DNA of 64,000 nucleotides from Eledone cirrhosa (taxonomy: Eukaryota). The stretch covers positions 235,290,001-235,354,000 of the forward strand of contig OZ024743.1 of assembly GCA_964016885.1 (NCBI GenBank), read 5' to 3'. This document shows, in pieces, positions 46,195-60,675 of the stretch; position 1 is the first letter of the stretch, and the number at the start of each line of letters is the position of its first letter. The notes under the pieces were generated by a model, which was given only the letters and a program-made list of their open reading frames with translations, had not been told where the DNA came from and did not search any database. A program made the translations under genes and the position numbers.

Positions 46195-46573
46195 TACCTA
46201 TCTTCCGGCCTTTCTAGAGAATCGTAAAAGCACATATCGTTATATGCTTTTTCTATGAAAATTAGTAGTGGGCAGACTAATTTGCATAGAGCGTGAGTAC
46301 GTACCGGTTCAACGGAGACGATAAAAACAAATAACGAAGCGAAATTAAATTTCGTTTCGTTTGTAACTCACCTTTGTATGACTGACGCTTAAACAATTAA
46401 GTTACAAACGAAACGAAATTTAATTTCGTTTCGTTATTTGTTTTTATCGTCTCCGTTGAACCGGTACGTACTTACACTCTATGCAAATTAGTCTGCCCAC
46501 TACTAATTTTCATAGAAAAAGCATATAACGATATGTGCTTTTACGATTCTCTAGAAAGGCCGGAAGATAGGTA

Positions 46574-46618
46574 AATATTGCTGATGAGATGTAACAACAT
46601 CGAAACTAGTTCAATATT
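46574..46618 (+). ncRNA. Type-I minimal hammerhead ribozyme (element A)
   Basis: aatattg-CTGATGA-gatgt(aaca)acatc-GAA-ACTAGT-T-caatatt: 7-bp stem I, 5-bp stem II, palindromic stem III, GUU site. Confidence 0.85.
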
Positions 46619-47039
46619 CCTTGTCTGGCTTTCTGGAGAATAGAGGAAAGGTGTTTCCTCAAAAACCAGTATGACTCTAAAAACCGGTTTGTCTGTGTGT
46701 TTACATACAGAATAGCTGGACACTCACAGTAAAGTGACCAGTGAAAAACTCGGTACATCTACATATGTATACGTGTGTGTATTCATATGCATACTAGTAT
46801 TTCAGTATACATATGTGGATGTACATTTTTAACTTAATTGTTTAAGCGTCAGTCATACAAAAGTGAGTTACAAACGAAACGAAATTTAATTTCGTTTCGT
46901 TATTTGTTTTTATCGTCTCCGTTGAACCGGTACGTACTCACGCTCTATGCAAATTAGTCTGCCCACTACTAATTTTCATAGAAAAAGCATATAACGATAT
47001 GTGCTTTTACGATTCTCTAGAAAGGCCGGAAGATAGGTA

Positions 47040-47084
47040 AATATTGCTGATGAGATGTAACAACATCGAAACTAGTTCAATATT
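47040..47084 (+). ncRNA. Type-I minimal hammerhead ribozyme (element A, second tandem copy)
   Basis: Identical to 46574-46618, offset by 466 bp. Confidence 0.85.
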
Positions 47085-47411
47085 CCTTGTCTGGCTTTCT
47101 GGAGAATAGAGGAAAGGTGTTTCCTCAAAAACCAGTATGACTCTAAAAACCGGTTTGTCTGTGTGTTTACATACAGAATAGCTGGACACTCACAGTAAAG
47201 TGACCAGTGAAAAACACGGTACATCTACATATGTATACGTGTGTGTATTCATATGCATACTAGTATTTCAGTATACATATGTGGATGTACATTTTTAACT
47301 TAATTGTTTAAGCGTCAGTCATACAAAAGTGAGTTACAAACGAAACGAAATTTAATTTCGTTTCGTTATTTGTTTTTATATATATATATATATATATATA
47401 TATATATTTAT

Positions 47412-47612
47412 ATAACGAAGGAAGTATGGTAAGATACCAGGTGAACCATAACACACCAGAGTACTCGATACTTTGGTAGTAAAGTGGATAATAGGAAAAT
47501 GTTCAAGACCCCGACGGCAGAGCTCAAGCCTTTCGACGGCTATTTCTGGACTGAAATAGCCGTCGAAACGGCTTGAGCTCTGTCGTCGGGGTCTTGAACA
47601 TTTCCCTATATT
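47412..47612. mobile_element. Fold-back copy of dispersed element D (other copies at 58522-58660 and ~61800-61992)
   Basis: ~56-bp inverted arms around tggact at ~47547-47552. Abuts (TA)n at ataacgaagg. Confidence 0.65.
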
Positions 47613-48239
47613 TATAATTTAAAATTCAGTAAGATCAAGGATTGTTATTTATTTATCTACGAACGTTTCAATGCAGCCAGAATATTTCACCAAAAGTGGA
47701 GAAAAACCGAACATTCTCAGTTAATTAACTCCACAATAAATGATTTACTTCAGGCCGTATCTCTTCAGGAAATACAATAAAACAATAATTTGTTTAACAT
47801 CAAAAGGCAAAAACACAAGAATTACACAAGATTTATATTCCATAAACAGAAAACCACAGTGTGTATTTTAGAATGTTTCCATTAAATCCTGACTAGAAAA
47901 TAATAGATAAATATCTACACATACTTTGGGGGGTTTATATATCTTTAAAAAATTCTTTTTATAAAATTATTACAATAATAATTCACTTGTAGTATGAGAA
48001 TCTTGTACGAATTATGCTATAAACATTGGTACATCTTTCAGATATTTACGATATAAAAATTGGAAATAAGCACTGAAATGTTATTTTACAACAATTTTTG
48101 GTATAACTAATTGACAACTACAATGTGTTTTAACATATGAATAATACACTTAACCTTTTATTTTGTATGTCCACAAACATACGATCTTGATTATTCGATT
48201 AAAACAGATAGAAAATCCTATAACCAAAACACCAAGAGC

Positions 48240-49480
48240 TATAAATATATACAGCATACAGAAAACAGCATTGCCAGACATATAAATATATACAGCATAC
48301 AGAAAACAGCATTGCCAGACATATAAATATATACAGCATAGAGAAAACAGTATTACCAGACATATAAATATATACAGCATACAGAAAACAGTATTACCTG
48401 ACATATAAAGATATACAGCATACAGTAAACAATGTTACCAGACATGAATAAATACAGCTTACAGTAAACAGTGTTACCAGACATATAAATATATACAGCA
48501 TACAGTGTTACCAGACATATAAATATATACAGCATACAGAAAACAGCATTACCAGACATAAATATATACAGTTTACAGTAAACAGTATTACCAGACATAA
48601 ATATATATACAGCTTACAGTAAACAGTGTTACCAGACATATAAATATATACAGCTTACAGTAAACAGTGTTACCAGACATATAAATATATACAGCATATA
48701 GTAAACAGTGTTAACAGACATATAAATATATACAGCTTACAGAAAACAGTATTACCAGACATATAAATATATACAGCTTACAGTTAACAGTGTTACCAGA
48801 CATATAAATATATACAGCATACAGTAAACAGTATTACCAGACATATAAAGATATACAGCATACAGAAAACTGTTACCAGACATAAATATATACAGCTTAC
48901 AGTAAACAGTGTTACCAGACATATAAATATATACAGCTTACAGTAAACAGTATTACCAGACATATACATATATACAGCTTACAGTAAACAGTGTTACCAG
49001 ACATAAATATATACAGCATACAGTAAACAGTATTACCAGACATATAATTATATACAGCTTACAGTAAACAGTATTACCAGACATATACATATATACAGCT
49101 TACAGTAAACAGTGTTACCAGACATATAAATATATACAGCTTACAGTAAACAGTATTACCAGACATATACATATATACAGCTTACAGTAAACAGTGTTAC
49201 CAGACATAAATATATACAGCATACAGTAAACAGTATTACCAGACATATAATTATATACAGCTTACAGTAAACAGTATTACTAGATAAATAAACATATATA
49301 GCATACAGAAAACTGCATTACCAGCTAGTTAAATATATAGAGCATACAGAAAACAGCATTACCAGATAGATAAATATATACAACTTACAGAAAACAGCAT
49401 TACCAGATAGATAGATATATACAGCTTACAGTAAACAGTGTTACCAGACATATAAAGATATACAACATACAGTAAACAGT
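48240..49480. repeat. 41-bp (39-41) minisatellite, about 30 copies
   Basis: Consensus atatatacagcttacagtaaacagtgttaccagacatataa. Confidence 0.93.
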
Positions 49481-58521: not shown

Positions 58522-58660
58522 ATAACGAAGGAAGTGTGGTAAGGAACCAGGTGGACCATAACGCGCCAGAGTACTCAATACTTAGGGTATAGAGTGGGTC
58601 ATAGGAAAATGTTTAACCACAACGGCTTGAGCTCTGCCGTCGGGGTTAAACATTTTTCTA
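58522..58660. mobile_element. Second fold-back copy of element D between (TA)n tracts
   Basis: Matches 47412-47505, then switches strand to aacggcttgagctctgccgtcggggttaaacatttttcta. Confidence 0.6.
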
Positions 58661-58739
58661 TATATATATATATATATATATATATGTGTGTGTGTGTGTG
58701 TGTGTGTGTGTGTGTGTGTGTGCGTGAGAAAATAAATGG

Positions 58740-59280
58740 ATTCTACAGGACTAGAACTGTTTCATTCGGGAGAAATCATCAGGAAGCCAAAGGACTTCCT
58801 GATTATTTCACCAAGGTATCTGGCAAGTGTATCTGACTTCTGCCGTCTCCTCTTTGCTTTATGCTTGTGAAACGTGGATCACATACAGAAAGCACCTCAA
58901 GGATCAGGAGAGGTTTCACCAACAATCTCTTCGTAAGTTACTTGGGGTGCAATAGAAAATGTTCGTCAGTGATTTGGAAGTTCTCGAACGGAGCAGGTGT
59001 GTGACTACAGAGAGGATGGTCTTTCGGCATCGGTTGGGGTGGTGAGGTCACGTGGTCCGGATGCCTGATGATCGTATTCCAAAGCAACTTCTGTGGAGAA
59101 CTGTGTGAAGGAAGGCGCCCACCACACAAACCAAAAATGCGGTACCGGGACTGATGAAGAGTAATCACCCAGAAACATTAGTGTCTGCAGTTCTGTTTAC
59201 TTGCCAACACTAGAGCAAGAATGAGGGTTCATTCTACTGACATGGCTTAAAAAAGAGGTTGTTTGGATAATTGCAAACGA
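58740..59280 (+). mobile_element. Degenerate RTE-clade LINE 3' fragment
   Basis: LLYACETW..RKHLK..ERFHQQSLRKLLGV and W*GHVVRMPDDRIPKQLL..GELCEGRR..KPKMRYRD. Confidence 0.8.
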
Positions 59281-59372
59281 ATCGAATATTATTATCATTA
59301 TTCGAAAAACTCAGATTACATTTATCATATATATTTCTATATACACACACACACACACACACATATATATAT

Positions 59373-60025
59373 ATACGAATATATTACACAGAGAGAAGTG
59401 TGTTACACAGTGAGATGTGTGTAAAGAATTAATACATGTGAGTTTAACCGTTACTGTGTGGAAAACAACACCTACAGGTTGGCAATTAAATAGAAAGAAC
59501 ACTAAGTCAGAATCAAATCTCCGAAGTAGAGTTTTAAATTACCAACCTTATCTTCCCCAATTCATGAGAGCCGTTATTTGATGCAAATAACACGTGTTTT
59601 CGCCCTGCTCTGGGCAGCGTGTATATTTGCGTTCTCTCTTTCCATTAGGCTAGATGTGTAGCTAACAATTCCACACTCGTGGACTGAGGACCCTGTGTAC
59701 TTTTACACTACACATTTCAGTGGCGAAACGAACTAGATTCGTATCAGCAAGCTTATAGTTATAAGGTTGGTAATTTAAAACTCTACTTCGGAGATTTGAT
59801 TCTGACTTAGTTTTCTTTCTATTTAATTGCCAACCTGTAGGTGTTGTTTTCCATACAGTAACGGTTAAACTCATATGTAATAATTCTTTACACACATCTC
59901 ACTGTGTAACACACTTCTCTCTGTGTAATATATTTGTATTTGAGCTCAGTTGAAAATTCTCTGTTCTTCTTTGAGCTAATATTATTATTACTGTGAACTG
60001 CGGAATACTCTAATTCCGATCCTTG
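59373..60025. mobile_element. Penelope pLTR/retrozyme-like element C (inverted arm plus forward arm) in (TA)n
   Basis: 59373-59551 is the reverse complement of ~59761-59939. Hammerhead-like core at 59684-59743. Confidence 0.65.
59680..59748 (+). ncRNA. Hammerhead ribozyme candidate (element C)
   Basis: CTGAGGA-[ccctg/tgtgta..tacaca/cagtgg]c-GAA-Acgaa(ctaga)ttcgT-A. Stem I has only 2 bp. Confidence 0.5.
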
Positions 60026-60366
60026 TATATATATATATATATGTATATATATATATATATATATATATATATATATATATATATATATATATATATATAT
60101 ATATATATATATATATATAGATAGATATAGATATAGATATATATATATGTATATATATATATAAGTATGTACACGTACATACATATATGTATACAGACGT
60201 ACAGTAGTATGTATATATATATACAAACATGCACACATATATATATGTACATATGGATTCACCGAACATTTATTATAATGCTCGGTGTGTTTGTAAACAA
60301 ACATCCCGTATTAAGCCGTAGTGTCTAGTAACCATCGTTGCTCGTTTGTTCAGCACTGACAAAGGA

Positions 60367-60409
60367 ATGCTGTACCAGTTTCAAGCTTATTAGCTATCGT
60401 CAGCAACGT
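60367..60409 (-). ncRNA. Minimal hammerhead ribozyme (element B, inverted copy)
   Basis: acgttg-CTGACGA-tagct(aata)agctt-GAA-ACTGGT-A-cagcat on the minus strand. Confidence 0.62.
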
Positions 60410-60675
60410 ATACCTTCCTGCCAGAGTCTTAAACGTATATACTTACCTTATGCATACTACTGTACGTCTGTATACATATATGTATGTACATGTACATACT
60501 TATATTTAAGTAACAGCCGTACTAAGAGTGGGAAATGAAAATTTCGTTTCATTTTTTCCGTTTATCGTTTTCGCTGCACCCGGCCGATTAACCCACTCAA
60601 TATGCAAATTGGGCTACTCAGCCGTTAATATGCATAAGGTAAGTATATACGTTCAACAATCTGGCAGGAAGGTAT

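What the first reader, a model, noticed from the sequence alone, without database searches (positions are those of the whole stretch)
46481..60609. ATGCAAAT octamer sits 80-103 bp upstream of the hammerhead in three different element families
Seen: ATGCAAAT at 46481 (CUGA at 46581), 59581 (CUGA at 59684) and 60602 (CUGA at 60682). It is always on the ribozyme strand, in elements with little other alignable sequence. A and B also share an upstream block (gaaat..aatttcgtttc..tttatcgt..ccgg). Established: the octamer is the POU-factor site used in snRNA and histone promoters. Inference: these elements may share a compact module of a POU-driven promoter plus a self-cleaving ribozyme. I do not know this pairing as described.
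Basis: partly seen in the sequence, partly recalled or inferred. Interest (0 to 1): 0.72.

Follow-up and report, generated by a model that had tools for sequence, protein, structure and literature searches.

The report
Ribozyme retroelements with likely internal promoter
Three small jumping elements in this animal genome, predicted to cut their own RNA, each carry the same eight-letter motif and a TATA-like box just ahead of the ribozyme; these likely form a built-in promoter, which a recent review says such elements lack.

Summary
The coordinates are right, but A (46.4 kb) and B (60.5 kb) are homologous, so there are two independent octamers, not three. A, B and C are 423-477 bp non-coding units with type I hammerheads. 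They sit in (TA)n runs with an inverted 5' copy and a 56-89 nt tail, the Penelope-like (PLE) insertion signature: non-LTR retrozymes. In one public run, A-family contigs end in (TA)n at the two predicted termini. ATGCAAAT is the only 8-mer common to all three units (shuffle P 0.003-0.01 for C). New here: the only TATA-like word after it lies at +43/+42/+41, putting a predicted start just before the ribozyme. This likely forms an internal Pol II promoter (about 0.5). The main rival (0.25) is an RNA signal for the PLE reverse transcriptase, because the octamer is the 5' arm of a hairpin 34-37 nt past the RT start. No start site was mapped. Four other hammerhead-like motifs in the window show no octamer, three of them truncated. 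A promoter-plus-hammerhead unit is known (newt satellite 2, schistosome Sm-alpha), so this is a new variant, not a new kind.

The parts
45924..46408 (-). Family A inverted copy (485 nt), with its own octamer (46280-46287) and hammerhead (core at 46187); ends in a TA run at the second terminus
46400..47379 (+). Family A, 2.1 head-to-tail copies of a 466-bp unit; two octamers and two hammerheads, so predicted able to release one full monomer (46612-47077)
   Evidence: TRF period 466, 99%; monomer fold z -12.1
46407..46465 (+). Block shared by A and B: stem-loop and first terminus (46447; repeated at 46913, 47379); inferred RT start site 1
   Evidence: 12 contigs of run X1 run into (TA)n behind 46447
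46481..46488 (+). Octamer of A, 5' arm of a hairpin whose 3' arm (46506-46513) is a 1-mismatch inverted octamer
46524..46528 (+). TATA-like word, octamer +43; predicted start near 46553
   Evidence: function inferred
46563..46634 (+). Type I hammerhead of A (core 46581, predicted cut after 46611; palindromic 4-nt helix III loop; extended helix I)
   Evidence: Rfam HH9 E 1.4e-5; fold z -4.25; paired changes 46589/46600 in helix II at 43% and 45% of summed contig depth in X1
46844..46844 (+). Second terminus of family A (repeated at 47310); inferred RT start site 2
   Evidence: 4 contigs of X1 run into (TA)n behind it; end of the inverted copy
46947..46954 (+). Octamer of A, second unit (TATA-like at +43, hammerhead 47029-47100)
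47311..47379 (+). Tail of A (69 nt) present only on the direct copy
59373..59551 (-). Family C inverted partial copy (179 nt, 97%), ending in a TA run
59552..60028 (+). Family C direct copy (about 477 nt) ending in (TA)n; tail about 59940-60028
59581..59588 (+). Octamer of C, paired with a 1-mismatch inverted octamer at 59625-59632
59622..59626 (+). TATA-like word, octamer +41, overlapping the hairpin 3' arm; predicted start near 59652
   Evidence: shuffle P 0.0034; partly forced by the pairing
59682..59745 (+). Hammerhead-like motif of C (core 59684, predicted cut after 59743); full catalytic core, weak helices I and II
   Evidence: read from sequence; fold z -1.2; not passed by descriptors
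60156..60459 (-). Family B inverted partial copy (306 nt, 94%) with hammerhead (core 60403) but starting downstream of the octamer
60453..60987 (+). Family B direct copy, 423-bp unit plus 113-nt partial repeat; tail 60932-60987; first terminus equivalent at 60565
60602..60609 (+). Octamer of B, paired with a 1-mismatch inverted octamer at 60628-60635
60644..60649 (+). TATA-like word, octamer +42; predicted start near 60674
60676..60718 (+). Type I hammerhead of B (core 60682, predicted cut after 60712; U-U at base of helix II)

Best explanation
A, B and C are non-coding hammerhead repeats with the insertion structure of Penelope-like elements (non-LTR retrozymes), and the octamer with the TATA-like word 41-43 nt after it likely forms an internal RNA polymerase II promoter that would start transcription just before the ribozyme. 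Inferred cycle: a POU-domain factor binds the octamer. Transcription starts about 30 nt after the TATA word. In a tandem locus such as A, two successive hammerheads cut out a 466-nt monomer that includes the next unit's promoter, and the monomer is circularised. A PLE protein supplied in trans nicks (TA)n DNA and primes reverse transcription at two fixed sites, giving the direct copy with its tail and the inverted shorter copy. The first start site lies 34-37 nt upstream of the octamer, so one full turn round the circle would place the promoter at the 5' end of the new copy, as C appears to show.
For: Shown: unit structure, inverted copy, tail and TA targets in all three. In run X1, 1,178 contigs lie on the A unit; of the 6 loose-end rows displayed (38 more not shown), the only two backed by several contigs run into (TA)n behind 46447 (12 contigs) and 46844 (4), the two ends predicted beforehand from the window; head-to-tail joints appear in 3 of 3 contig runs (X1 may be the window's source sample). 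The tail equals the stretch between two RT start sites in a PLE in vitro (PMC11167929, main-text results read). Helix II of A shows a paired change. The octamer is the only 8-mer common to the three units and has no variant above 1% in X1. The only TATA[AT] in the 110 nt after it is at +43/+42/+41 (shuffle P 0.032, 0.035, 0.0034), and neither of the 2 distinct LINE-borne octamers has one there. The octamer arm is invariant while its pairing partner deviates at a different position in each family, which points to a sequence constraint beyond pairing. Four or more T residues in a row inside C's helix II and in A's body argue for Pol II over Pol III. Octamer-plus-TATA Pol II promoters are established (human VH genes, passages of PMC2212390).
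Against: No start site, footprint or expression was measured. There are only two independent families. C is a single copy, its family consensus is untested, and its ribozyme is imperfect. C's TATA-like word is one inserted base away from what the hairpin pairing alone would give. A's and C's TATA words are weak. In B the predicted start would drop the extended part of helix I. The lack of octamer variants in X1 has little power: 13 common variant sites in 466 nt leave about an 80% chance that any 8 nt are free of them (hand estimate). The single contig in run X14 has two A>G changes inside the octamer; if that is a successful lineage rather than one edited molecule, the octamer is dispensable. 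None of 4 other hammerhead-like motifs (D, E, F, G) shows an octamer upstream; only D has over 100 nt of upstream sequence that could belong to the element (G by eye). A review states that metazoan retrozymes seem to have no promoter (passage, PMC7761336). No autonomous PLE ORF was identified in the window.
Confidence: 0.5

Rival explanations
1. The octamer hairpin is an RNA signal bound by the PLE reverse transcriptase just 3' of where it starts copying; the match to the POU site is incidental and the elements are transcribed by read-through.
For: The octamer lies 34 (A) and 37 (B) nt past the first terminus, and 30 nt in C if C closes at its junction. In all three it is the 5' arm of a predicted hairpin, with partners at +32, +33 and +51. 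The anole PLE starts at ORF +111-118 but needs RNA to +172, about 55 nt further 3'. The hairpin's outer pairs are kept between A and B.
Against: About 60-67% of each unit is predicted paired, so being in a stem is unremarkable. A fully paired helix is poorly read by sequence (established knowledge), and the unpaired base differs between families. It does not explain the TATA spacing. C's tail shows no likeness to the A/B tail (318 and 360 of 500 shuffles), so C may use another RT yet has the same octamer.
Confidence: 0.25
2. The octamer is shared by descent in A and B and present by chance in C; it has no current function.
For: A and B are homologous. The motif and the window were chosen after the fact. 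Window-wide counts are near expectation once duplicates are removed. D shows no octamer within one mismatch in 200 nt.
Against: P 0.003-0.01 for C and a further 0.003 for the TATA position (partly confounded). A 10-nt exact block survives in otherwise clearly diverged A/B sequence, and the one shared word is a textbook factor site.
Confidence: 0.17
3. The module is a type 3 Pol III (U6/7SK/H1-like) or snRNA-type promoter with octamer, an unrecognised PSE and TATA.
For: H1 core promoters pack octamer, Staf site, PSE and TATA into about 84 bp and recruit both Pol II and III (passages, PMC11340601). Newt satellite 2 uses an snRNA-type promoter.
Against: No common motif between octamer and TATA in A/B versus C, and only 33-35 nt are available. 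T4-T5 runs at 59701 (inside C's ribozyme) and 46826 would stop Pol III before a monomer is complete. The host's own snRNA promoters could not be examined (no genome).
Confidence: 0.08

Closest known systems
Metazoan non-LTR retrozymes (Cervera and de la Pena 2020, PMC7229834; Li et al. 2026 preprint 10.64898/2026.07.22.740005)
   Same: Non-coding low-GC units with a type I hammerhead in short tandems; highly self-paired predicted circle; A/B helix III capped by a palindromic tetraloop as in axolotl HHR_Amex1, and B's U-U helix II base as in HHR_Amex2; proposed to be moved by PLEs.
   Different: Units are 423-477 bp, above the 170-400 nt first reported but inside the 51-972 bp of the preprint. 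Here PLE mobilisation is indicated by insertion anatomy (two fixed ends, inverted copy, TA target), not by pLTR homology. The preprint has 0 occurrences of 'promoter', 'octamer' or 'TATA', and the 2020 review says no promoter is apparent.
Newt satellite 2
   Same: Hammerhead repeat transcribed by Pol II from an internal snRNA-type promoter (citing passages). Recalled, not seen: that promoter has an octamer and a PSE.
   Different: Vertebrate long arrays; octamer plus PSE as recalled, versus octamer plus TATA-like word at 41-43 nt here; no sequence comparison was possible.
Penelope-like elements, non-autonomous forms (Craig et al. 2021, PMC8557442; Frangieh et al. 2024, PMC11167929)
   Same: Partial tandems, inverted 5'-truncated copy, tail at one end, (TA)n targets, hammerhead.
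   Different: No ORF; tails of 56-89 nt versus 30-40 bp described; full rather than minimal hammerheads in A and B.
Schistosoma Sm-alpha
   Same: Promoter followed by a hammerhead, with the 5' unit transcribing the next (passage).
   Different: Pol III promoter there; octamer/TATA-like module here.

Membership tests
Non-LTR retrozyme | Type I hammerhead in each unit | tested here: met
   A and B met (covariation); C has the full core but weak helices
Non-LTR retrozyme | Short non-coding unit in head-to-tail copies | tested here: met
   A 2.1 copies, B 1.3 copies, C one copy; head-to-tail joints in 3 of 3 contig runs; no ORF of 120 aa or more in A or the direct B copy
Non-LTR retrozyme | Highly self-paired monomer | tested here: met
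   A monomer -163 kcal/mol, z -12.1, 0 of 100 shuffles; B and C folded without a shuffle control
Non-LTR retrozyme | Expressed as circular RNA and self-cleaving | not testable with these tools
   No raw RNA reads were available; a closed 503-nt contig in X14 fits a circle or a tandem equally
PLE-mobilised element | Inverted 5'-truncated copy plus tail at one end | tested here: met
   A, B, C; two fixed A-family ends in X1
PLE-mobilised element | (TA)n or AT-rich target | tested here: met
   All six outer ends abut TA runs; loose ends in X1
PLE-mobilised element | Homology to the pLTR of an autonomous PLE in the same genome | not testable with these tools
   No genome held; none of the 10 ORFs scanned in Pfam showed a GIY-YIG domain
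Octamer-TATA Pol II promoter | Exact octamer upstream of a TATA-like word | tested here: met
   3 of 3 families, spacing 41-43
Octamer-TATA Pol II promoter | Capped start site about 30 nt after TATA; POU binding; loss on mutation | not testable with these tools
   No 5'-end data
snRNA-type promoter (newt satellite 2) | Proximal sequence element between octamer and start | tested here: inconclusive
   No motif common to A/B and C; the host PSE is unknown

The most novel reading that the evidence does not exclude
Invertebrate retrozymes carry their own octamer-TATA Pol II promoter, acquired in at least two unalignable lineages and paralleling newt satellite 2. The RT start site is set just upstream of it, so one turn round the RNA circle rebuilds an upstream promoter at the 5' end of each new copy. 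Because the octamer sits in an RNA hairpin, A-to-I editing could erase the promoter in progeny copies.
Probability: 0.35. Interest if true: 0.68.

Novelty: new variant of a known kind. Interest (0 to 1): 0.48.

Why it matters
How animal retrozymes reach their very high RNA levels is open: a 2020 review says they appear to lack promoters, and the 2026 preprint linking them to PLEs does not mention promoters. A defined octamer-TATA module with a predicted start base makes that question directly testable and would tie expression to POU factors. The two fixed ends and inverted copies also give insertion-level support, in an invertebrate, for PLE mobilisation. If the rival holds, the hairpin would be a candidate RT-binding signal.

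Tried and rejected
No whole genome is held, so the genome-wide enrichment test could not be run. Rfam at gathering score: 0 hits. Pattern scans for relatives: 19 of 19 viral loci had helix I of 1 bp or less; of 24 metagenome loci none had both helix II over 3 bp and an octamer, and none aligned to A, B or C. All were treated as chance. Sequencing-run search: no RNA holder listed. It listed 20 holder rows from 17 studies; the 17 holders I did not lay are not used as evidence. Raw DNA run X23 gave 0 laid reads, which is no test. Only family A was laid; B and C consensus sequences are untested. A sequence-only model from the three-way alignment found only its own inputs and their copies (6 hits); C was misaligned in that alignment. 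Loose core matches at 32901 and 58969 lack helices and were dropped. My scored descriptor is not selective below about 28 (shuffled tops reached 28 and 26 in 10 shuffles), so E and F are candidates only. The sigma-70 scan is irrelevant to this host. Host-gene search placed the organism only loosely: named animal hits are molluscs at 28-39% identity. Coats et al. 1994 is not held. Literature searches showed no listing describing an octamer in invertebrate retrozymes; only listings and the passages cited were seen, and subscription papers are not covered. Four look-ups of earlier findings returned nothing.
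Full report
Observation. The window holds 8 octamers against 3.9 expected, a count reached in 5 of 100 shuffles. Three of the 8 are copies of family A, two are the same site in a duplicated LINE piece, and one lies in another LINE ORF, so there is no window-wide excess. All 5 element-borne copies are on the ribozyme strand. A and B are homologous: upstream score 47 against 17.1+-2.4 (0 of 500 shuffles), with the hammerheads in register. C aligns with neither (93 and 75 of 500). 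The claim therefore rests on two independent lineages. Even so, ATGCAAAT is the only 8-mer shared by the three whole units, and shuffling C gives P 0.0027 for the exact motif within 130 nt of the core and P 0.0099 for any A/B-shared 8-mer.

What the elements are. Each has a direct copy ending in (TA)n and, abutting its 5' end, an inverted copy that also ends in (TA)n but stops 69 (A), 56 (B) or about 89 (C) nt short. A has 2.1 tandem units of 466 bp, B 1.3 units of 423 bp and C about one unit of 477 bp. Partial tandems, an inverted 5' copy, a one-sided tail and (TA)n targets are the described PLE layout (passages of PMC8557442). In vitro the tail is the stretch between two internal RT start sites (PMC11167929, abstract and results read). 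From the window I predicted A's ends at 46447 and 46844. In run X1, 1,178 contigs lie on the unit; among the 6 loose-end rows shown (38 more not shown), the two with several contigs run into TA repeats behind exactly 46447 (12 contigs) and 46844 (4). X1 may be the sample the window came from, so it shows family-wide behaviour and is not independent replication.

The ribozymes. A matches Rfam HH9 below the gathering score (E 1.4e-5), folds at z -4.25, and shows reciprocal changes at the paired positions 46589 and 46600 in 43% and 45% of X1 depth. A and B cap helix III with a palindromic tetraloop, and B has U-U at the base of helix II, as described for the two axolotl retrozyme hammerheads (PMC7229834, parts 1, 3 and 4 of 6 read). 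C keeps every core base but has C-C where the usual G-C closes helix II and only 2 bp of proximal helix I; one substitution in this copy would explain the first defect (inference). The A monomer folds at z -12.1. Together these place A and B, and probably C, among non-LTR retrozymes, which a 2026 preprint derives from PLEs (parts 1-3 of 5 read).

The octamer. Two further regularities appeared. First, the only TATA[AT] word in the 110 nt after the octamer begins at +43, +42 and +41 (shuffle P 0.032, 0.035, 0.0034). A T-A step follows 29-30 nt after it in all three, which would put the start at the 5' edge of A's extended helix I, 8 nt before B's core and 32 nt before C's; TA steps are common, so this adds little. 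Second, in all three the octamer is the 5' arm of a predicted hairpin whose 3' arm is an inverted octamer with one mismatch at a different position each time. The invariant 5' arm and drifting partner suggest the sequence itself is kept. C's TATA-like word overlaps that 3' arm, so its P value is partly confounded. T4-T5 runs inside the units argue against Pol III.

Mechanism. I favour an internal octamer-TATA Pol II promoter (0.5). The A locus would transcribe from unit 1, cut at 46611 and 47077, and release a monomer containing unit 2's promoter. A PLE protein would copy the circle from a site 34 nt upstream of the octamer, so a one-turn copy starts with the promoter; C, whose direct copy begins 29 nt before its octamer, fits this if its ends meet. 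Shown: anatomy, termini, motif positions. Inferred: POU binding, start site, cleavage, circularisation, identity of the RT. The main rival (0.25) is an RT-binding RNA hairpin, since the anole PLE needs about 55 nt of RNA beyond its start site. Descent plus chance gets 0.17 and a Pol III or snRNA-type promoter 0.08.

Results against. X1 shows no octamer variant above 1%, but with 13 common variant sites in 466 nt this has little power. The one contig in run X14 has two A>G changes in the octamer. Six of its 7 changes that are rare (under 5%) in X1 are A>G on the ribozyme strand (P 0.005), which resembles A-to-I editing of a structured RNA, but the run type is unknown and a strain or allele would look the same. 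Four other hammerhead-like motifs show no octamer: D has none within one mismatch in 200 nt, though it is unclear that this stretch belongs to D; E, F and G keep too little upstream sequence to test (G by eye). No relatives were found in viral or metagenome collections.

Known systems and novelty. Newt satellite 2 is a hammerhead repeat with an internal snRNA-type Pol II promoter (citing passage and title); that it contains an octamer is my recollection, as the paper is not held. Sm-alpha has a Pol III promoter before its hammerhead. So promoter plus hammerhead is known. Yet a 2020 review states that metazoan retrozymes seem to have no promoter (passage), the 2026 preprint has no occurrence of 'promoter', 'octamer' or 'TATA', and searches listed nothing on an octamer in invertebrate retrozymes. 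Unread supplements may bear on this. The host is probably a mollusc (named animal hits 28-39% identity). Verdict: a real but smaller pattern than reported, a new variant of a known kind, interest 0.48.

Noticed in passing
window 47396-47616, 58505-58668, 61796-62000: Family D: three copies of another element ending in (TA)n with an inverted short arm and a tail of about 90 nt; the 61.8 kb copy has a decayed hammerhead core with a long helix II. No octamer within one mismatch in the 200 nt upstream.
   Followed up: partly
window 45667-45894 (+), core 45733: Candidate hammerhead E with palindromic helix III loop and long extended helix I (fold z -4.4); a TATA run lies 55 nt before the core, but the element is cut by a microsatellite before the position where an octamer would lie.
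   Followed up: partly
window 58723-58800 (-), 58380-58500 (+): Candidate hammerhead F (core 58782) and a partial second copy, beside a decayed RT-type LINE piece at 58790-59150.
   Followed up: partly
window 59151-59185 (+): Possible decayed minimal PLE-type hammerhead G, seen by eye; the likeness is recalled, not tested.
   Followed up: no
runs X9 and X14 on window 46400-46865: Two runs labelled as other organisms each hold a single contig of the A unit at depth 5-10 with the head-to-tail joint. X14's is a closed loop (473+30 nt) with six A>G changes that are rare in X1; X9's lacks 46468-46517, the octamer hairpin. Trace carry-over seems likelier than horizontal transfer, but this is untested.
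   Followed up: partly
window 1878-21454: 61-bp satellite of about 310 copies, with a long inverted duplication (1-1875 against 9606-11467) that carries an RT-encoding LINE piece.
   Followed up: no
window 26649-28004 (+): 451-codon open exon of pacifastin/VWC repeats; best hits are mollusc tenascin-X-like and kielin/chordin-like proteins.
   Followed up: partly
window 32400-45411: Three LINE-type elements: a broken one on + (34141-37482; endonuclease, RT, zf-RVT pieces) and two on - (38037-41687 with a 987-aa open stretch; 43363-45411).
   Followed up: no
window 48240-49482, 52274-54115, 42861-43653: Further tandem arrays of 41 bp (31 copies), 92 bp (20 copies, 95%) and 401 bp (2 copies).
   Followed up: no
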